This document shows positions 5,077 through 49,315 of a DNA stretch of 64,000 nucleotides, one piece after another. Each line of letters opens with the position of its first letter. The first letter of the stretch is position 1. Both the position numbers and the translations under genes were made by a program. Where the stretch lies: sequence record OQ870555.1. One strand, given 5' to 3'. Source of the DNA: Escherichia phage PECP14. The notes beneath the pieces are model-generated. The model was not told where the DNA came from. It was given only the letters and a program-made list of their open reading frames with translations, and did no database searches.

Positions 5077-7061
5077 TGTCACGTAATTTAATGCCAAAAA
5101 GTGGGGCTATGGCCCCATATGTTGTAGTTAATAGAGACGCCGCAGTTGCCGGCGTTTTCTCTGTTGATGGAGAAGCTGGTGCTGTTGTGCTAACTTCCAA
5201 ATACCTGCAAATCTCTAAGTATACTACTGATAAAGCTGCTACTGATGCAGCTATCAATAATATTAACGAGTCGATTGGTAATATTAATACTGCATTAGGA
5301 GGTGTTAATACTACTTTAGATACTAAAGCTGCTAAAGGTGCCAATAACGATATTACAGAATTAAATGCACTTACTAAAGCTATTAAAATTTCTCAAGGTG
5401 GTACTGGGGCAGTAACGCTAGAAAATGCTAGAGCAAATCTACAAGTAGAACGCCTACGTCAGCAAGATAACGGAACTTTTATTACCTCTCCTGACGGTAA
5501 ATATTCTTTATTTATCTATAATAGTGGAGATTTTGGTTTAATTAATAGTGCTAGTACAGCAGTTAGTGCTATGAAAGTTGCTTTCGGTGGTACGGGTGGA
5601 ACTACTCCTAAAACTGCAAGAAAAGGCCTTAATGTCCCTGTTGGTGCCTTGGCTGAGATAGTACCTGATGGAGATAACGTATTGAACTATGTAGCTGTTG
5701 CTGGCCAGAGTGGGTATTATTCCTCTGGTGACGCAATAGTTAACGGGCCTCCCAAGCAAGAGGGTTGGTGGACGTATAACTTCCACTGTCATGGAGTAGA
5801 CATAAATGGTGTGGCACAATACGGTATACTTCGTGCAGTTGGATTGTCTGGTAGTTCCTGGGTTAACGTTCTTGATGGTACTGATAACTGGAGAGGATGG
5901 CAGGAACAATTTAATGTTCAAACTACTGTTCAAATCTCTAATGGGGGTACTGGTGCTCAGAGTGTAGGACAAGCAAGAAGTAATCTTGGAATTGGTGAAA
6001 CTGATATTCCTGTTTTTAGGGGTGTGAATCTTATTGAAAAGAATGGTGCTAATTCCGGCATTCTTTACCTAATAAACAAGAACGCAGAAGGTGTGCAACT
6101 TTCATATTCCAGGATCTACAATGAAATTCAAGGAGCGACCGCTAAAGCAACAATACAAGTAACAAGAGAAGGTGGTGATAATAACTATTATCAATTTGAC
6201 GAGCATGGTAATGCACTAAACTATAACTCTATAACAGTAGGTCGTGGTATTGGTAACGCTCTTGGTGATAATTCATTGGTTATTGGTGATACTGACACTG
6301 GCTTTAAATGGGGTGGTGATGGTATTATTCAAATTCATTGCAATGGTAGTAATATTGCATCTTATGAAGCGCACAATATGCATATTAATGGATTACTTAC
6401 AATATGGCCTACTGAGAATAACGCAAATGGGGTTAGAGTTTCAGGCGCTAGAACTGGTGGCGGTAATGCGTTAATTGGGGGTCAAATTGCTGGCGGCGGC
6501 TGGGATGGTTGGCGAGATCGCGCATCTGGTCTACTTGTTGAACTACCAGGTGATGATGCCGCATCAAACATATTCAAGGCTGTTAGGTGGGGCGGTGATT
6601 GGGCTGCTGGTCTTGATGTTGTAAGATATGGTGCTGGAGGTTGTGAGGCGCACCTTAATATAAGAGGTGCAACTTACACATTTAATGATGCTGGGTATGC
6701 GTCTGCTGTTCAGTGGGTTAACACATCCGATATTCGCCTGAAAGCAAATCTAAAAGAGATTGAAAGCGCTAAAGAAAAAGTGAAATCGATTAAGGGTTAT
6801 ACTTATTTTAAGCGTAATAATCTTGATGAAGATGAACACTCTATTTATTCTGAGGAAGCGGGTGTAATAGCTCAGGATGTGCAGGCTGTTTTGCCGGAGG
6901 CTGTTTATAAAATCTCTAACAGTGAGTATTTAGGTGTAAGTTATAGTGGTATTACCGCTCTCCTAGTTAACGCTTTTAATGAACTTAATGAAGTTGTTGA
7001 AAAGCAGCAGCAAGAAATTGATGAACTTAAGAAATTGGTAAAACAATTACTTGATAAGTAA
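5076..7061 (+). CDS. second L-shaped tail fibre protein (LtfB-like) with C-terminal intramolecular chaperone domain
   Basis: 661 aa; Gly-rich beta-helix-like body; C-terminus ...SDIRLKANLKEIESAKEKVKSIKGYTYFKRNN...AGVIAQDVQAVLPEAVYK... is a second copy of the chaperone module. Confidence 0.75.
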   Translation: MSRNLMPKSGAMAPYVVVNRDAAVAGVFSVDGEAGAVVLTSKYLQISKYTTDKAATDAAINNINESIGNINTALGGVNTTLDTKAAKGANNDITELNALTKAIKISQGGTGAVTLENARANLQVERLRQQDNGTFITSPDGKYSLFIYNSGDFGLINSASTAVSAMKVAFGGTGGTTPKTARKGLNVPVGALAEIVPDGDNVLNYVAVAGQSGYYSSGDAIVNGPPKQEGWWTYNFHCHGVDINGVAQYGILRAVGLSGSSWVNVLDGTDNWRGWQEQFNVQTTVQISNGGTGAQSVGQARSNLGIGETDIPVFRGVNLIEKNGANSGILYLINKNAEGVQLSYSRIYNEIQGATAKATIQVTREGGDNNYYQFDEHGNALNYNSITVGRGIGNALGDNSLVIGDTDTGFKWGGDGIIQIHCNGSNIASYEAHNMHINGLLTIWPTENNANGVRVSGARTGGGNALIGGQIAGGGWDGWRDRASGLLVELPGDDAASNIFKAVRWGGDWAAGLDVVRYGAGGCEAHLNIRGATYTFNDAGYASAVQWVNTSDIRLKANLKEIESAKEKVKSIKGYTYFKRNNLDEDEHSIYSEEAGVIAQDVQAVLPEAVYKISNSEYLGVSYSGITALLVNAFNELNEVVEKQQQEIDELKKLVKQLLDK

Positions 7062-25300: not shown

Positions 25301-25369
25301 ATTTAAACTCCTCTCTCAAATTTATGAATCTATTATACAGAAAATTTTTCCTGAAAGCAAATAAAATTT

Positions 25370-44343: not shown

Positions 44344-44372
44344 TTGCTTTCAGCTCCAAAATTCTGTATAAT
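44344..44372 (+). promoter_or_regulatory. early promoter module
   Basis: TTGCTT-17 nt-TATAAT, then ..ATAAATTTGAGAGAACAACAAAAGGAAAACAATT-ATG. Confidence 0.65.
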
Positions 44373-45288: not shown

Positions 45289-45672
45289 TAATTTAAAAGA
45301 CTAGTAAATCGGTAGACGAAAGCCCAAGCATCTTACCTCGCAGCAGCGGTTGAAATACGAGGTTAAATAAGACCGCTGACCATACTATAAAGTATAATCT
45401 ATTGGAGATTATGTTTATTACATCAGACATTTAATCTGACACGTAAAAACAAAAGGTCGTTGGTAGTACCAACACAACTTCAAAGATCAACGCTCAAGTA
45501 TGAAAGCTGAAAAGTTAAAAGCACTCAAACTTCTAACCTTCTAAAGCTAAAAGATGCAAAGTATTCGTTGATGATTCAAACCCTAGATCAAAGGTACATG
45601 GCTCATAAGATATGGCCTGTGGCGCCTCTAGGCTGTTTATCGGTTTACTAGTCTCTCAATTTAAAAATGTAT

Positions 45673-45701
45673 TTGCTAATTAGTTTAGTTTTCTGTATAA
45701 T
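45673..45701 (+). promoter_or_regulatory. early promoter module
   Basis: TTGCTA-17 nt-TATAAT, then ..TTTAAATTGATGAGACGAGG..ATG. Confidence 0.65.
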
Positions 45702-45731
45702 ATATTTTTAAATTGATGAGACGAGGCTATT

Positions 45732-46049
45732 ATGATTTTTCATATTCTGATTGATGATGTGCGTAACCTTCATGGAATGGACATTATCATTCGAACCCCC
45801 GAAGCCGCTGTTGAGTTTCTGAATAAAACCGATACCACAGGTCATTTCGTTTATATGGATAACGATCTGGCTGTAGATGGTATGGAAGGTTATCAAATTC
45901 TTCGTTTACTCCTAGAATTTGGTCAGAGACCCAAGAAAGTGGTACTAGTAACCTCGAACCCAGTAGCTAAAGAGACCATGCGTAATGATCTCTTAGACGA
46001 AGGGTATCAAGAAAGCCCTAATCGTATTGAGTACGATTGGCCGGAGTAA
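45732..46049 (+). CDS. hypothetical protein, possible receiver (CheY-like) fold
   Basis: 105 aa; alternating hydrophobic/acidic pattern (IFHILIDDV...YMDNDLAVDGMEGYQILRLL...VVLVTSNP) resembles a stand-alone receiver domain. Inference only. Confidence 0.5.
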   Translation: MIFHILIDDVRNLHGMDIIIRTPEAAVEFLNKTDTTGHFVYMDNDLAVDGMEGYQILRLLLEFGQRPKKVVLVTSNPVAKETMRNDLLDEGYQESPNRIEYDWPE

Positions 46050-46054
46050 ATAAA

Positions 46055-46504
46055 ATGAAGGCAGCTTTGCTTTTAATAGCTGCCCTAACCTATAGCTTCA
46101 ATAGTCATGCGACCTACGACTCAAAGCAGATTGATTGCATTGCAAAAAATATCTACTTCGAAGCACGAGGTGAGGGCACTAAAGGAATGATCGCAGTTGC
46201 ACAGGTTACTAAAAACCGTGTTAACTCTGGTACTTTTCCTGATTCTTACTGTAAAGTAGTATATCAGTCTAACCAGTTCTCTTGGGTGGCCAAGAGACCA
46301 AAAGTTGATAAAACCGATGAGGCTTGGCAAGTTGCTAAGAATTTAGCTAGAGTGATATACTACGTTGATTTACCACAAGATCCAACACATGGAGCGTTAT
46401 ACTTCCATAGTGGTAAAGATAAACCGTACTGGACAAAGAAGTTTAAGAAAACAACGAAGATTCAAGGCCATACGTTTTACAAGCCTGTGGTTAAGAAAAC
46501 TTAA
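46055..46504 (+). CDS. secreted cell-wall hydrolase, SleB/Hydrolase_2-like
   Basis: ATG at 46055; signal peptide MKAALLLIAALTYSFNSHA; domain ...CIAKNIYFEARGEGTKGMIAVAQVTKNR...SYCKVVYQSNQFSW.... Confidence 0.65.
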   Translation: MKAALLLIAALTYSFNSHATYDSKQIDCIAKNIYFEARGEGTKGMIAVAQVTKNRVNSGTFPDSYCKVVYQSNQFSWVAKRPKVDKTDEAWQVAKNLARVIYYVDLPQDPTHGALYFHSGKDKPYWTKKFKKTTKIQGHTFYKPVVKKT

Positions 46505-46513
46505 AAAATTCGA

Positions 46514-46542
46514 TTGCTTAAAGCCTTAAATTTCTGTATAAT
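46514..46542 (+). promoter_or_regulatory. early promoter module
   Basis: TTGCTT-17 nt-TATAAT, then ..ATAAATTAATGAGAGGAAGCG..ATG. Confidence 0.65.
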
Positions 46543-46573: not shown

Positions 46574-46744
46574 ATGAAATCAGTTGTAATTATTGGTGTT
46601 AATACTCGTGGTATCCGTACTACGAAAACAGTTAAAACTACTAACGTTGCTGAAATTACTACAAACCCTAAGAAGTTTGATTTCGCCAAAGTCTCGGCAG
46701 TTATGACAGAACAATCTTTTAACCAAGCACTGGGAATTAAATAA
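46574..46744 (+). CDS. hypothetical small protein (56 aa)
   Basis: Not in the supplied track (under 60 aa); ATG with RBS GAGAGGAAG; coupled by TAATG to the next gene. Confidence 0.4.
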   Translation: MKSVVIIGVNTRGIRTTKTVKTTNVAEITTNPKKFDFAKVSAVMTEQSFNQALGIK

Positions 46745-47193
46745 TGGAAGAGAATATTCTAGATGTTTTGCGTAGGGCTTTGCAGGAATCTAAGGTTGAT
46801 GGTTCTGATAAAGAAGTAGCTAAAAGCTACCAGACCATAATCGGAGATCTTCAGCGTGTTGATAAAGACTTCATTACTTCTGAACAGTTTGTATCTTATC
46901 TAAAAGCTCAACTGAAAAGCATTAATCAGACGAAAGCTAAACTTCACGGTCAAGACCTTGATAATTATAGCTTGCAGTCTGCTCAGTATGAATATATACT
47001 GAACAAATGGTTACAACAGTATCTGCCGCCTCAGCTTTCTGATTCTGAGATTCGCAAATACTTTGCAGAATTAGTTAAGTTGAACCCTGGGATTACGAAG
47101 GGTATGCTGATGAAAGCGATTAAGGAAGAATTCCCTGGTCGTTATGATGGTGGTATTGCTGCTCAAGTTGCTGGCGAATTCAATAAAAATTGA
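46744..47193 (+). CDS. GatB/YqeY-domain protein
   Basis: 149 aa; ...NKWLQQYLPPQLSDSEIRKYFAELVKLNPGITKGMLMKAIKEEFPGRYDGGIAAQVAGE... matches the YqeY pattern (yLPqqLs.eE...GRaDG). Confidence 0.6.
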   Translation: MEENILDVLRRALQESKVDGSDKEVAKSYQTIIGDLQRVDKDFITSEQFVSYLKAQLKSINQTKAKLHGQDLDNYSLQSAQYEYILNKWLQQYLPPQLSDSEIRKYFAELVKLNPGITKGMLMKAIKEEFPGRYDGGIAAQVAGEFNKN

Positions 47194-47194
47194 T

Positions 47195-47223
47195 TTGCTA
47201 AACGCTTCAAAATTCTGTATAAT
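47195..47223 (+). promoter_or_regulatory. early promoter module directing transcription into the ORF-free segment
   Basis: TTGCTA-17 nt-TATAAT; the -35 overlaps the YqeY-like stop codon. Confidence 0.65.
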
Positions 47224-48057
47224 AGATTCATAAATTAGAGAACAGCGAGCCGATTACGCTGAGTGAGTTTAGTGATTCCTAATAGGATAGCTATTCCACT
47301 GAATAGAGTCGGTGAGTTGGAGACTAGTAAGTACTCTGAGAGAGGCTACGAGCTAACGCTTATTGCTATTGATAGGGAACTGAAAATCTGCGGAAAACTC
47401 GGGAGCTGTCCCGAAATCTCGTAAACTCTTCTCTAGTTTATGTTAGTGGGGTGTCGAACTGACTTATGTGATAACACTGCCAGATGCTCACAGGCTGACA
47501 TTGAGCTTTACTGCTCCTTCTGGAAAGAATCGGATAACTCGGGCTTATACCGGATAAGCATTCGCTGCTGGAGTACATACTATGACGGTTCAGGAGGTAC
47601 GCCACCTGATCAGTATTAGGTTAGAATCGAAACAGCTAAACCACGAGGAAACCTGACGGCCTCAACCAAACTCGGAACTCGGGATCACTGCCTAGTGTGT
47701 ACCCCGTTTAACCTGAGACTAGGCATCCAGCTTCGCATCGAAAATCGGAGGTGCGATTCTAACAGACCGCGTAACTATGAGAGTGGGAAACGCTGACATG
47801 AGAGATGTCACTAATGGTGCCCAATAGTACAGGTAATTCGCGATAATTCCTGTTGAGCGGCAGCAGTAGGCTGGGAGTCATGACCTAAGCCTAACCGAGT
47901 TCTTCACATACGGAGAACATAACCACAAAGTCACCCTGACTTAAACTGGAAGATATTGTCTGACGGAAGGGCTGCAGAGCTTAATCTGAGGGGGCTGACC
48001 CTACCTACCGTCGGGTATCTTTAAGAGCTTTTATAAGAGTTCTTAAAAATACCTAAA
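47224..48057 (+). ncRNA. candidate large structured non-coding RNA (ORF-free, promoter-driven, ends at tRNA-Arg)
   Basis: No ORF of 60 aa or more in any frame between 47194 and 48158; visibly more G+C-rich than flanking DNA; recurring AACTCGG(G) motif and several short hairpins. Identity unknown. Confidence 0.4.
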
Positions 48058-48370: not shown

Positions 48371-49315
48371 ATGTTTACTAAAAACACTAAAGAACTGACT
48401 TCCGATCAAAAAGTAATTCGTACTATTAAACGTTGGGGTGTTGGTGCTGTAGTTGGTCTTGGCGCTCTTATTCTGGCTCTCAATTCCTATACAGTTGTTC
48501 AGGACGGTACGGTTAAAACTCAGACTTTCCTGGGTAAAGTTAGTCCTAATCCTGTATTGCCGGGGTTCCATATTGTCAACCCATTCGCCTCTTTTGATAC
48601 TTTTAGTACGAAAGATATTTCTATGAAACTGGATAAACTTCAGGTTCCTAGCCAGGATAAGTTTAAGTCTACAGTTGACATTACCGTTATGTTGCAGTTT
48701 GATGGTGCTAAAGCTCCTATGAACCGTGTTAACGCAGGTACTCAGGATCAAGCTCTGAACAAGTACGTTGAAGAGAAGATGCTGTCTACGATTCGTGAGT
48801 TTGGTAAGTCTGTACCAAAAGCACAAGATCTGTTCGACGCTAAGATTCAGGCTCAACTGCAAACCGCTATTCAGCAAGAAGTAGAAGAGTATGCGCGTCC
48901 TTATGGTTACACCGTTAAGCAAGTATTCCTTCAGGATATTACTCTGCCACCGGTAATCATGGAACAGGTACAGAACACCAAAGTTCGTGAAGAACAAGTT
49001 AACGCTGCAAAAGCTGAACTGGCTCGTGTTGAACAAGAAGCACAGCAGAAAGTTAAGCAAGCTGAGGCAGATCGTTCCGCTCGTGAAAACATGGCAGTAG
49101 CTAACGAACGTGACGCAGATGCTAAACTGTACGCAGCTAAGAAAGAAGCTGAAGCTAACGCCGCTCTGCAACGTACCATTACTCCTGAAATGATTCGTTG
49201 GAAGCAGCTGGAAGTTGAAATGCTTCGTGCTGAAAAATACCAAGGGGGTGTACCACAGACTGTTGTCGGTACTGGCTACGATGGTCAAATGATCATGGAT
49301 ATGCGTAACAAGTAA
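48371..49315 (+). CDS. SPFH/band-7 (stomatin/prohibitin-like) membrane protein
   Basis: 314 aa; N-terminal TM helix (WGVGAVVGLGALILAL), SPFH body, C-terminal Ala/Glu/Gln-rich coiled coil; RBS AAGGAAAT. Confidence 0.75.
   Translation: MFTKNTKELTSDQKVIRTIKRWGVGAVVGLGALILALNSYTVVQDGTVKTQTFLGKVSPNPVLPGFHIVNPFASFDTFSTKDISMKLDKLQVPSQDKFKSTVDITVMLQFDGAKAPMNRVNAGTQDQALNKYVEEKMLSTIREFGKSVPKAQDLFDAKIQAQLQTAIQQEVEEYARPYGYTVKQVFLQDITLPPVIMEQVQNTKVREEQVNAAKAELARVEQEAQQKVKQAEADRSARENMAVANERDADAKLYAAKKEAEANAALQRTITPEMIRWKQLEVEMLRAEKYQGGVPQTVVGTGYDGQMIMDMRNK

What the first reader, a model, noticed from the sequence alone, without database searches (positions are those of the whole stretch)
45673..46504. 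Early-expressed secreted SleB-like cell-wall hydrolase following a receiver-domain-like protein
The 46055-46504 product has a signal peptide and a SleB/Hydrolase_2-type domain, yet sits in the early region far from any lysis cassette. It is translationally coupled to a 105-aa protein whose pattern resembles a stand-alone receiver fold. An early periplasmic peptidoglycan hydrolase could act in DNA entry, superinfection exclusion or envelope remodelling rather than lysis.
Basis: partly seen in the sequence, partly recalled or inferred. Interest (0 to 1): 0.5.

Follow-up and report, generated by a model that had tools for sequence, protein, structure and literature searches.

The report
T5 phage's second, exported wall hydrolase
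The two genes are real and are the known, annotated but functionally untested T5.084/T5.083 pair of T5-like phages: a small predicted cyclic-phosphate esterase with a receiver-like fold, followed by an exported SleB-type cell-wall hydrolase, so the finding is ordinary, though a conserved structured RNA just upstream of it deserves its own look.

Summary
The window comes from a T5-like Salmonella phage (99.5% identical to phage JNwz02). Both ORFs are real. ORF 45732-46049 matches Pfam cREC_REC (E 1e-14). ORF 46055-46504 matches Hydrolase_2 (E 4e-26). It has a signal peptide, the catalytic E-A-R-G-E motif and a predicted SleB catalytic-domain fold. A T5-type early promoter (45673-45701) precedes the pair.

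These are the orthologues of T5.084 and T5.083. They occur in more than 400 sequenced phages, are already annotated this way, and are already noted in papers as a second "endolysin" far from the holin.

The upstream protein is not a signalling receiver. It belongs to a family predicted to be cyclic-phosphate esterases in RNA-repair and NAD conflict systems.

The adjacency is lineage-specific and often broken, so the two genes are unlikely to form a functional module.

Best reading: a Sec-exported accessory lytic transglycosylase that helps degrade the cell wall alongside the canonical holin and EndoT5 cassette about 24 kb away. It is probably dispensable in the laboratory. Its function is untested.

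Side finding: a 357-nt non-coding element (45298-45654) is more conserved than the flanking genes. Its secondary structure is supported by strong covariation, and it lies upstream of the hydrolase gene in two Demerecviridae subfamilies. It has no Rfam match.

The parts
45673..45701 (+). Sigma-70 early-class promoter (TTGCTA, 17 nt, TATAAT) that drives the gene pair
   Evidence: Found by the promoter scan. It is one of 21 TTGCT-N18-TATAAT sites in the window, against 0.09 expected. T5 RefSeq annotates a promoter at the equivalent place, upstream of T5.084.
45732..46049 (+). cREC protein, 105 aa, orthologue of T5.084. It is a stand-alone divergent receiver-fold domain and a predicted cyclic-phosphate phosphoesterase.
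   Evidence: Pfam PF20274 at E 1.1e-14; phrog_1479 at E 9e-30. The AlphaFold2 model has pLDDT 90.7, and its best PDB matches are receiver domains with TM about 0.55-0.60. D8, D9, R21, D43, D45 and G53 are invariant in 60 diverse homologues. It is 92% identical to T5.084, with dN/dS 0.09.
46043..46046 (+). Shine-Dalgarno GGAG of the hydrolase gene. It lies inside the 3' end of the cREC gene, 8 nt before the ATG.
   Evidence: Read directly from the sequence.
46055..46504 (+). Exported SleB/CwlJ-type (Hydrolase_2) peptidoglycan hydrolase, 149 aa, orthologue of T5.083. Most likely a lytic transglycosylase.
   Evidence: Pfam PF07486 at E 4e-26; phrog_938 'endolysin' at E 2e-30. phmmer against B. 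cereus and B. anthracis SleB catalytic domains (4F55, 4FET) gives E 7e-9. The AlphaFold2 model has pLDDT 93, and the only significant PDB fold matches are 4F55 and 4FET, with target-normalised TM 0.76-0.81 and rmsd 2.3-2.4 A. dN/dS against T5 is 0.10.
46055..46111 (+). Signal peptide (residues 1-19, MKAALLLIAALTYSFNSHA) with a predicted signal-peptidase I site after SHA
   Evidence: The hydrophobic core scores Kyte-Doolittle 2.6 over 10 residues. 106 of 120 homologues have a comparable N-terminus. Close relatives keep small residues at -3 and -1 (SHA, SQA, AYA, VQA, SYA, TFA, AIA). No signal-peptide predictor was available, so this is a heuristic result.
46160..46174 (+). Codons for E36-A-R-G-E40, the motif that holds the catalytic glutamate
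   Evidence: It aligns with E-S-R-G-E of SleB 4F55. E36 is invariant and E40 is kept in 94% of 86 homologues that are under 50% identical. That the first Glu is the catalytic one rests on my recollection of the SleB structure papers.
46136..46252 (+). Cys28 (46136-46138) and Cys66 (46250-46252), a candidate periplasmic disulfide pair
   Evidence: Both are invariant in 86 distant exported homologues. Bacillus SleB has Leu and Ser at these positions. The disulfide itself is inferred; no model coordinates were available to measure the distance.
46514..46542 (+). Next early-class promoter. It starts the downstream DUF7616 and YqeY-like unit and marks the end of the two-gene unit.
   Evidence: The pattern TTGCTT-N17-TATAAT was found. 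T5 annotates promoter P-D/E 33 at the equivalent site. No terminator-like site lies between 46504 and 46514.
45298..45654 (+). Conserved structured non-coding element directly upstream of the promoter. It is a candidate stable RNA or leader, and its relation to the gene pair is unproven.
   Evidence: Against T5 it is 93-100% identical per 100-nt bin, versus 76-90% in the two genes. In 439 of the 440 phage records that hold it, identity is at least 90%, while 230 records have the hydrolase gene at only 80-90%. Folding z-score is -6.0. The structure has 85 pairs: 92.9% of cells are paired against 34-41% with slid partners, and 34 pairs show compensatory changes against 1-10 with slid partners. 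Invariant G-U pairs point to a + strand RNA. A homologue in Pectobacterium phage My1 ends about 20 nt before the hydrolase ATG. There is no Rfam match.

Best explanation
The window is from a T5-like (Epseptimavirus) phage, and the pair is the orthologue of T5 genes T5.084 and T5.083. They form a short transcription unit behind a strong sigma-70 early promoter.

The second gene encodes a small peptidoglycan-cleaving enzyme made of a cleavable Sec signal peptide and a SleB/CwlJ-type catalytic domain, most likely a lytic transglycosylase. It is exported to the periplasm without a holin and probably folds there with one disulfide. It acts as an accessory wall-degrading enzyme that supplements the phage's canonical holin, L-alanyl-D-glutamate peptidase (EndoT5 type) and spanin cassette about 24 kb away. 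It is not the main lysis enzyme and is probably dispensable in laboratory conditions.

The first gene encodes an unrelated cytoplasmic protein of the cREC family. This is a stripped-down receiver fold that keeps the acidic pocket and is predicted to hydrolyse cyclic phosphates (2',3'-cyclic RNA ends or cyclic ADP-ribose-type molecules). It fits the tRNA and NAD-salvage neighbourhood rather than the hydrolase.

The two genes share a promoter in this lineage through local synteny, not because they work together.

Shown: the domains, the fold, the motifs, the signal sequence, the promoter, the conservation and the distribution. Inferred: export, the disulfide, the bond cleaved, the timing, the contribution to lysis, and the activity of cREC.
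For: Identity of the locus:
- 99.5% DNA identity to Salmonella phage JNwz02; 441 phage records share the region.
- T5 has the same layout: promoter, T5.084, T5.083, promoter P-D/E 33.

Hydrolase:
- Pfam Hydrolase_2 at E 4e-26.
- Sequence and fold match to SleB catalytic domains.
- The E-A-R-G-E motif and two invariant cysteines are conserved.
- 106 of 120 homologues have a signal-like N-terminus, and some carry a lipobox-like VGC.
- Members of the same family do serve as endolysins. In Erwinia phage Calisson the homologue directly follows the holin. In Vequintavirinae the signal-peptide-bearing homologue is toxic on expression, and CR3_087 is implicated in lysis (PMC7344957).

The canonical cassette is elsewhere:
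- Holin, endolysin and spanins lie at 17.6-23.6 kb of the relative PP925828, against 44.8 kb for the SleB-like gene.
- The M15C enzymes EndoT5 and LysSTG2 are the characterised endolysins (PMC13461873).

cREC:
- Pfam E 1e-14, receiver-like fold, invariant D8, D9, D43, D45.
- Family description in PMC7824862.
- Vibrio T4-like phages have cREC beside tRNA genes and a DUF2828/DUF7788 protein, with no hydrolase.
- NadR and PnuC-like genes lie about 5 kb downstream in close relatives.

Not a module: the adjacency is broken or absent in many lineages.

Both genes are under purifying selection.
Against: - There is no experimental evidence for activity, export or timing of this protein in any T5-like phage.
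- The only genome-wide screen found (CRISPRi-ART on T5) scores T5.083 and T5.084 'Not Fit'. It also scores the known endolysin 'Not Fit', so it cannot tell dispensable from missed.
- An active exported muralytic enzyme made early should endanger the cell before the phage is ready. That argues for low or restrained activity, or for a role other than lysis.
- In unrelated large phages the homologue sits among replication and nucleotide-metabolism genes rather than lysis genes. This fits an early, non-lytic role at least as well.
- The cREC activity is a published prediction that has never been tested.
Confidence: 0.5

Rival explanations
1. Early periplasmic remodelling enzyme with a non-lytic role; this is the first reader's idea. 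The exported hydrolase is made early on purpose, to loosen or edit the sacculus. Possible aims are cell enlargement, a block to septation, or exclusion of superinfecting phages or of other envelope-crossing machines. It would contribute little to final lysis.
For: - The pair has its own early-class promoter.
- Signal-peptide-bearing homologues in unrelated large virulent phages sit among replication and nucleotide-metabolism genes. One is next to the DNA polymerase in a T4-like contig. One is beside ThyX and a metallophosphatase. One is beside DNA ligase and dCMP deaminase in Pseudomonas phage LSL4.
- Export is holin-independent.
Against: - In T5 the true lysis genes are also in the early region, so position does not discriminate.
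- Family members are bona fide or implicated lysis enzymes elsewhere.
- No phenotype is known.
- From established knowledge, T5 already has a dedicated exclusion lipoprotein, Llp.
Confidence: 0.2
2. cREC and the hydrolase form a functional two-gene module. For example, the receiver-like protein would sense or process a nucleotide signal and control the hydrolase.
For: - In this genome the gap is 5 nt and the Shine-Dalgarno sequence lies inside the upstream gene.
- The adjacency is kept in Markadamsvirinae and in one divergent T5-like metagenomic contig.
Against: - In My1 the two genes are 2.8 kb apart.
- The hydrolase occurs without cREC in Klebsiella vB_Kpn9-P3 and Providencia PSTCR5.
- PMBT31, KKP_3711 and L036 carry 0.26-0.5 kb between the two genes, annotated as an extra gene in the first two.
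- Homing-endonuclease sequence is fused or inserted at the locus in SHSML-45 and JLBYU43.
- Seven distant cREC contexts have no Hydrolase_2 within 3-4 kb.
- One protein is cytoplasmic and the other exported.
Confidence: 0.05
3. The hydrolase helps phage DNA cross the cell wall at infection. It would do so either as a virion component or by aiding second-step DNA transfer.
For: - Hydrolase_2 domains occur at the N-terminus of giant DarB-like or polyvalent proteins that are thought to travel with DNA. The phrog_938 profile is 2185 positions long, and the Sinorhizobium phage PBC5 hit is annotated DarB-like.
Against: - A Sec signal peptide directs the protein out of the cytoplasm, where virions are assembled.
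- The limited AKFV33 analysis, which excised four gel bands, identified only the capsid protein, the major tail protein, the tail fibre and pb2.
- The gene lies at about 35% of the T5 map, in DNA that enters only in the second step.
- From established knowledge, the T5 tail protein pb2 already carries the muralytic activity used at entry.
Confidence: 0.03
4. The conserved structured RNA upstream (45298-45654) is a cis-acting leader that controls expression of the hydrolase operon. If so, the real unit is RNA element + (cREC) + hydrolase.
For: - The order element, then (cREC), then hydrolase holds in the window, T5, SHSML-45, PMBT31, KKP_3711, My1 and all 20 IMG/VR loci that carry the element.
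- In My1 and KKP_3711 only a Shine-Dalgarno sequence separates the element from the next start codon.
- Covariation support for the structure is strong.
Against: - In the window and in T5 a strong promoter lies between the element and cREC. Transcripts from that promoter lack the element.
- The element was not detected in the Klebsiella, Providencia and L012 T5-like loci that do have the hydrolase.
- It could equally be an independent stable RNA, or a 3' structure of the upstream gene's transcript.
Confidence: 0.15

Closest known systems
T5.083 (annotated 'cell wall hydrolase SleB' or 'endolysin') and T5.084 of Escherichia phage T5, and their orthologues across Markadamsvirinae
   Same: Same genes, same order, same flanking promoters. 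Protein identity is 89% (hydrolase) and 92% (cREC). Proteins 99-100% identical to those in the window are already in databases.
   Different: Nothing of substance. The window phage is an Epseptimavirus rather than T5 itself.
Bacillus spore cortex-lytic enzyme SleB (PDB 4F55, 4FET), a lytic transglycosylase
   Same: The catalytic domain has the same fold (TM 0.76-0.81, 31% identity) and the same E-x-R-G-E motif.
   Different: - It lacks the N-terminal peptidoglycan-binding domain.
- It scores 54 bits against the 236.5-bit cut-off of the SleB equivalog model.
- It has two invariant cysteines that SleB lacks.
- It acts, if at all, on Gram-negative vegetative wall rather than on muramic-lactam-containing spore cortex.
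Signal-peptide-bearing SleB-like hydrolases of Vequintavirinae (CB7_83, CR3_087) and the holin-adjacent homologue of Erwinia phage Y2 and Calisson
   Same: Small size, N-terminal export signal and the same Hydrolase_2 domain. They have been discussed as secreted endolysins.
   Different: In T5-like phages the gene is not next to any holin candidate, and a separate, characterised endolysin exists.
Secreted or signal-anchored endolysins (Lys44 of Oenococcus phage fOg44; SAR endolysins such as P1 Lyz); comparison from my own knowledge
   Same: Holin-independent export through Sec, so the enzyme waits in the envelope before lysis.
   Different: The catalytic fold is different. Here the signal looks cleavable rather than a releasable anchor. 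Nothing is known about how activity would be held back.
cREC (cyclic-phosphate processing receiver) domain family, Pfam PF20274, defined by Iyer et al. 2021 (PMC7824862)
   Same: A stand-alone domain of about 100 aa with conserved aspartates, carried by a phage and lying near tRNA and NAD-salvage genes.
   Different: No RNA ligase, 2H phosphoesterase, Macro or WYL partner lies next to it in this window. The predicted activity has not been tested for any member.

Membership tests
Pfam Hydrolase_2 (SleB/CwlJ catalytic domain superfamily) | Profile match above the curated gathering score over the whole domain | tested here: met
   92 bits against a cut-off of 27; E 4e-26; profile positions 1-100 of 100.
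Pfam Hydrolase_2 (SleB/CwlJ catalytic domain superfamily) | Fold of the solved SleB catalytic domain | tested here: met
   AlphaFold2 model with pLDDT 93. Foldseek against the PDB gives only 4F55 and 4FET as significant matches, with target-normalised TM 0.76-0.81 and rmsd 2.3-2.4 A over 120 columns.
Pfam Hydrolase_2 (SleB/CwlJ catalytic domain superfamily) | Catalytic glutamate in the E-[AS]-R-G-E motif | tested here: met
   E36-A-R-G-E40 aligns with E-S-R-G-E of 4F55. E36 is invariant in 86 distant homologues.
Pfam Hydrolase_2 (SleB/CwlJ catalytic domain superfamily) | Cleavage of the glycan strand with formation of 1,6-anhydro-MurNAc | not testable with these tools
   Needs purified enzyme and muropeptide analysis.
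Spore cortex-lytic enzyme SleB proper (NCBIfam TIGR02869, equivalog) | Full-length match above the equivalog cut-off | tested here: not met
   54 bits against a cut-off of 236.5. Only profile positions 78-201 are matched.
Spore cortex-lytic enzyme SleB proper (NCBIfam TIGR02869, equivalog) | N-terminal peptidoglycan-binding domain ahead of the catalytic domain | tested here: not met
   The protein consists of a 19-residue signal peptide followed directly by the catalytic domain.
Canonical holin-dependent phage endolysin | Encoded in a lysis cassette with holin and/or spanins | tested here: not met
   In the close relative PP925828 the annotated lysis genes (holin, endolysin, spanins) lie at 17.6-23.6 kb, and the SleB-like gene at 44.8 kb. 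The neighbours in the window are cREC, DUF7616 and a YqeY-like protein.
Canonical holin-dependent phage endolysin | Soluble cytoplasmic protein without an export signal | tested here: not met
   It has a hydrophobic N-terminal signal with an S-H-A cleavage motif, conserved as a feature across homologues.
Sec-exported (signal-peptide) endolysins | N-terminal Sec signal sequence | tested here: met
   Heuristic hydrophobicity plus the -3/-1 rule; 106 of 120 homologues are alike. No dedicated predictor was available.
Sec-exported (signal-peptide) endolysins | Demonstrated contribution to host lysis | not testable with these tools
   The only indirect data are the CRISPRi-ART T5 'Not Fit' score, which is uninformative because lys is also 'Not Fit'.
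cREC_REC (Pfam PF20274) | Profile match above the gathering score | tested here: met
   55.3 bits against a cut-off of 27; E 1.1e-14; profile positions 2-86 of 88.
cREC_REC (Pfam PF20274) | Receiver-like alpha/beta fold with conserved acidic residues at the ends of strands 1 and 3 | tested here: met
   The model has pLDDT 90.7, and its best PDB matches are receiver domains (DesR, GacS D1, LiaR, NarL) with TM 0.55-0.60. D8, D9, D43 and D45 are invariant in 60 homologues. By the model's secondary structure, the helices after strands 1 and 5 are missing.
cREC_REC (Pfam PF20274) | Genomic association with RNA-repair or NAD-processing genes and not with histidine kinases | tested here: inconclusive
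   A tRNA gene lies 2 kb downstream and the main tRNA block starts about 7.5 kb downstream; NadR and PnuC lie about 5 kb away. Vibrio phage homologues lie beside tRNAs and a DUF2828/DUF7788 protein. No RNA ligase, Macro or 2H gene lies next to it here. Histidine kinases were not searched for systematically.
cREC_REC (Pfam PF20274) | Hydrolysis of cyclic phosphate linkages | not testable with these tools
   This is a prediction from PMC7824862 only.
Two-component response-regulator receiver (Pfam Response_reg) | Profile match to Response_reg | tested here: not met
   No Response_reg hit at E up to 1. The best sequence match to CheY in the PDB has E 1.4.
Two-component response-regulator receiver (Pfam Response_reg) | Conserved lysine after strand 5, and an output domain or a partner kinase | tested here: not met
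   No conserved lysine appears in the C-terminal part of the 60-sequence alignment. The protein is a single domain of 105 aa.

The most novel reading that the evidence does not exclude
The hydrolase gene is the downstream end of a previously unrecognised unit, whose upstream part is a 357-nt conserved, structured RNA (45298-45654). This RNA would act as a leader or riboregulator that sets when, or how much of, a potentially lethal exported wall hydrolase is made. The enzyme's real job would then be an early, controlled edit of the host wall rather than final lysis. If so, T5-like phages would carry an RNA-controlled envelope-remodelling module that has gone unnoticed in a classic model phage.
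Probability: 0.12. Interest if true: 0.65.

Novelty: already known. Interest (0 to 1): 0.3.

Why it matters
As it stands, the finding re-describes two annotated genes of a classic model phage, so it adds little. It still points at a real gap. Exported SleB-type hydrolases are widespread: 1363 phage records hold a homologue. They often sit among early or replication genes of large virulent phages, and none from a T5-like phage has been characterised. It is also unknown how a phage tolerates a wall-cleaving enzyme in the periplasm before lysis. The cREC family is an untested predicted enzyme of RNA and NAD conflict systems, and T5 would be a tractable place to test it. It is absent from Rfam and from genome annotations.

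Tried and rejected
The genome-collection scan for bacterial relatives was therefore never run.
- A covariance model of the RNA element was not built. The element exceeds the size and time limits; nhmmer was used instead.
- A motif scan of IMG/VR for the invariant loop of the RNA returned 20 T5-like loci and 6 chance matches. It gave no new divergent homologues.
- Literature searches for expression timing or phenotypes gave little:
  - The Bas33 RNA-seq and proteomics supplement has no matching terms.
  - HIDEN-SEQ does not cover a T5-like phage.
  - The T5 pre-early deletion study does not touch these genes.
  - LysSTG2 turned out to be the M15C enzyme, not the SleB-like one.
- The CRISPRi-ART data are ambiguous. 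The tables say 'Not Fit' for both genes, one sentence of the supplement lists T5.084 as Fit, and the known endolysin is also 'Not Fit'.
- Considered and rejected:
  - A canonical response regulator: no profile hit.
  - The main endolysin: a characterised M15C enzyme sits beside the holin.
  - A DNA-entry enzyme: it has a signal peptide and arrives with second-step DNA.
  - The minus-strand ORFs inside the two genes (45708-45896 and 46121-46330) as real genes: they overlap well-supported, conserved genes on the + strand.
- The disulfide could not be checked geometrically, because model coordinates are not exposed.
Full report
**1. What is at the coordinates**

The window is part of a T5-like phage genome.
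- The 1.9 kb around the finding is 99.5% identical to Salmonella phage JNwz02. It is shared by 441 phage records, nearly all Salmonella or Escherichia T5-like phages.
- 28 tRNA genes follow from 48058 onward.

Two + strand ORFs occupy the finding:
- 45732-46049 (105 aa).
- 46055-46504 (149 aa, ATG start). A TTG at 46037 is a possible alternative start. It is less likely, because the ATG has a GGAG 8 nt upstream and is the start annotated in relatives.

The finding's start coordinate, 45673, is the first base of a TTGCTA-17-TATAAT promoter-like site.
- The pattern TTGCT-N18-TATAAT occurs 21 times in the window, against 0.09 expected.
- Another copy lies at 46514-46542, just after the second ORF.
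- In the T5 reference record the same layout is annotated: promoter, T5.084, T5.083, promoter P-D/E 33, T5.082, T5.081.

The pair is therefore a short unit bracketed by two early-class promoters. No terminator-like site separates it from the next unit.

**2. The hydrolase**

Domain and fold:
- The protein matches Pfam Hydrolase_2 over the full profile (E 4e-26) and PHROG 938 'endolysin'.
- It aligns with the catalytic domains of Bacillus SleB (4F55, 4FET; E 7e-9), and the E-x-R-G-E motif is in register.
- An AlphaFold2 model (pLDDT 93) has those two structures as its only significant PDB matches, with TM 0.76-0.81 normalised to the target.

It is not SleB proper. It scores 54 bits against the 236.5-bit cut-off of the SleB equivalog model, and it lacks the N-terminal wall-binding domain.

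Evidence for export:
- The N-terminus (MKAALLLIAALTYSFNSHA) looks like a cleavable Sec signal.
- 106 of 120 homologues from the large protein collection have a comparable hydrophobic N-terminus. Close relatives keep small residues at -3 and -1 while the core varies. A few homologues carry a lipobox-like VGC instead.
- Cys28 and Cys66 are invariant in 86 homologues below 50% identity. Bacillus SleB has Leu and Ser at those positions. I read this as a disulfide formed in the periplasm. That is an inference, because I could not measure the distance in the model.

**3. The upstream protein**

- It matches Pfam cREC_REC (E 1e-14) and gives no hit to the ordinary Response_reg profile.
- Its model (pLDDT 90.7) resembles receiver domains at TM 0.55-0.60. 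By its secondary structure it lacks the helices after strands 1 and 5.
- An exhaustive profile search found 425 cluster representatives, mostly stand-alone proteins of about 100 aa.
- In 60 of them D8, D9, R21, D43, D45 and G53 are invariant.
- The family was defined by Iyer and co-workers. They state that it never occurs in two-component systems, and they predict that it processes cyclic ADP-ribose or 2',3'-cyclic phosphate ends (PMC7824862).

So "receiver-like fold" is right, and "receiver" in the signalling sense is not.

**4. Are the two genes a unit of function?**

In this genome they are 5 nt apart. The adjacency does not hold across lineages:

| Situation | Where |
|---|---|
| Adjacent | Markadamsvirinae; one divergent T5-like metagenomic contig |
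| cREC 2.8 kb upstream of the hydrolase | Pectobacterium phage My1 |
| Hydrolase without cREC | Klebsiella vB_Kpn9-P3; Providencia PSTCR5 |
| 0.26-0.5 kb between the two (annotated as an extra gene in the first two) | PMBT31; KKP_3711; locus L036 |
| Homing-endonuclease sequence fused or inserted at the locus | SHSML-45; JLBYU43 |
| cREC without a hydrolase (beside tRNAs and a DUF2828/DUF7788 protein) | Vibrio T4-like phages |
| cREC without a hydrolase within 3-4 kb | four other metagenomic contexts |

Counted over all phage records, 493 hold a cREC homologue and 1363 hold a hydrolase homologue. I conclude that the pairing is local synteny.

**5. Relation to lysis**

- The canonical lysis genes of a close relative (holin, M15C endolysin, spanins) lie at 17.6-23.6 kb of its map. 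The SleB-like gene lies at 44.8 kb. That stretch is outside this window.
- The M15C enzymes EndoT5 and LysSTG2 are the characterised endolysins of this group.
- The existence of a second, SleB-domain "endolysin" far from the holin in T5-like phages has been published. It was noted for AKFV33 in 2012, and again in 2024 for Salmonella phages. The 2024 paper explicitly leaves open which enzyme the phages use.
- The 2012 paper places holin, endolysin and the SleB-like gene all in the early-gene region. Position in the early region therefore does not argue against a lysis role.

Elsewhere the family plays both parts:
- In Erwinia phage Calisson the homologue follows the holin.
- In Vequintavirinae a signal-peptide-bearing homologue is toxic on expression and has been linked to lysis.
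- In a T4-like contig, in another large-phage contig and in Pseudomonas phage LSL4 it sits among replication and nucleotide-metabolism genes.

The only functional screen I found scores both T5 genes "Not Fit". It scores the known endolysin the same way, and one sentence of its supplement contradicts its own table for T5.084. This is weak evidence of dispensability at best.

**6. Most likely mechanism**

The hydrolase is made from an early sigma-70 promoter and exported by Sec. It is processed and oxidised in the periplasm. There it cleaves glycan strands as an accessory to the holin and EndoT5 pathway.

- Shown: fold, motif, signal, promoter, conservation, and purifying selection (dN/dS 0.10 and 0.09).
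- Inferred: export, the chemistry of cleavage, timing, and the contribution to lysis.

The main rival is an early, non-lytic wall-editing role. The recurrent placement among early genes keeps that reading alive. A role in DNA entry is unlikely:
- The protein is exported away from where virions assemble.
- It was not among the few virion proteins identified in AKFV33.
- From established knowledge of T5, its gene enters the cell only with second-step DNA.

**7. Side finding: a conserved structured RNA upstream**

The 384 nt between the upstream gene and the promoter are more conserved than the genes around them.
- Against T5, identity is 93-100% per 100-nt bin, versus 76-90% in the two genes.
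- In 439 of the 440 phage records that hold the stretch, identity is at least 90%. In contrast, 230 records have the hydrolase gene at only 80-90%.
- The stretch is unannotated in most records, including T5.
- It folds far better than shuffled controls (z -6.0).

Divergent copies in Enterobacter phage KKP_3711 and Pectobacterium phage My1 keep the same structure with different sequence.
- Over 85 pairs, 92.9% of cells are paired, against 34-41% when partners are slid.
- 34 pairs show changes on both sides, against 1-10 with slid partners and 11.9 in shuffles.
- The 21-bp closing helix (45298-45318 with 45634-45654) has 15 covarying pairs.
- Invariant G-U pairs assign the structure to the + strand.

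Rfam has no match, even with lax filters.

In My1 and KKP_3711 only a Shine-Dalgarno sequence separates the element from the next start codon. That codon belongs to the hydrolase in My1 and to cREC in KKP_3711. In the window and in T5 a promoter lies in between. In all 20 IMG/VR loci that carry the element, the order is element, cREC, hydrolase.

The element may be a leader, a processed stable RNA, or a 3' structure of the upstream transcript. I cannot tell which without transcript data.

**8. Verdict**

- The finding itself is already known and is annotated in public records.
- Its function remains untested, which leaves modest interest.
- The adjacent RNA element is the more novel item and should be followed up separately.

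Noticed in passing
window 45298-45654 (+): A 357-nt non-coding element that is more conserved than the flanking genes. Covariation strongly supports a secondary structure, including a 21-bp closing helix. It has no Rfam match and is unannotated in most records, including T5. It always lies upstream of the hydrolase gene, and in Pectobacterium phage My1 it abuts the hydrolase gene's ribosome-binding site. A 45-aa minus-strand ORF (45293-45430), annotated 'hypothetical' in a few records, lies inside it and is probably not a gene.
   Followed up: partly
window, 21 sites from 10932 to 59041 (for example 25332-25360 on the - strand; 44344-44372, 45673-45701, 46514-46542 and 47195-47223 on the + strand): A family of near-identical promoter-like sites, TTGCT-N18-TATAAT, often with TTCTG just before the -10 hexamer. 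There are 21 against 0.09 expected. From 21.7 to 32.2 kb they lie on the - strand. The single site at 10.9 kb and all sites from 38 kb onward lie on the + strand, which shows divergent early transcription. The site at 25332-25360 resembles, from my memory, the classic T5 PN25 promoter.
   Followed up: partly
L010:2985-3806 (Shigella phage SHSML-45), L029:752-992 (JLBYU43), L026:1823-2347 (PMBT31), L027:1818-2075 (KKP_3711), L036 about 5270-5744: The cREC/hydrolase locus is a hot spot for insertions. An HNH_3 endonuclease domain is fused in frame to a divergent cREC (about 51% identical). In other phages 0.26-0.5 kb lies between cREC and the hydrolase, annotated as an extra gene in PMBT31 and KKP_3711. 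In SHSML-45 the RNA element upstream stays very close to T5's in the alignment even though the cREC gene next to it has been replaced.
   Followed up: partly
window 47224-48057 (+), after the promoter-like site at 47195-47223: This stretch corresponds to T5 'RNAX', which the T5 record annotates as a 719-nt stable RNA of unknown function ahead of tRNA-Arg. Unlike the element at 45298-45654, it is poorly conserved between the window and T5 (41-86% per bin, with gaps).
   Followed up: no
window 46574-47193 (+); L009:3441-4314: The hydrolase gene is followed by DUF7616 (56 aa) and a YqeY/GatB-C-like protein (labelled 'tRNA amidotransferase' by PHROGs). In Providencia phage PSTCR5, which lacks cREC, the YqeY-like gene directly follows the hydrolase. 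This adjacency therefore holds in one T5-like phage that lacks cREC.
   Followed up: no
L014, L015 and L018 (cREC contexts); L021 (hydrolase context); L017; window 48371-49315: Calcineurin-like metallophosphatase genes recur within a few kb of distant cREC genes (weak Pfam hits in L014 and L018). One lies next to a distant hydrolase homologue. A faint Band_7 (SPFH) hit lies directly upstream of cREC in L017, and a protein annotated as Band_7-domain in relative PP105779 lies 2.3 kb downstream in the window.
   Followed up: no
Literature: PMC11879866, supplementary files 1 and 16: The CRISPRi-ART supplement is inconsistent. One sentence lists T5.084 among Fit genes of unknown function. The list of 17 Fit genes and the fitness table both give T5.084 as Not Fit (fitness -4.2, p 0.88). 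The known endolysin lys is also Not Fit, so negative calls in that screen carry little weight.
   Followed up: yes
L019 and L020, 4001-4417; L022, 2827-3390: In a T4-like metagenomic phage the signal-peptide-bearing hydrolase homologue lies between an HSP20 gene and the DNA polymerase gene. In Pseudomonas phage LSL4 it lies among the dCMP deaminase, DNA ligase and DprA genes. Placement of this exported hydrolase among replication genes may be a general habit of large virulent phages.
   Followed up: partly
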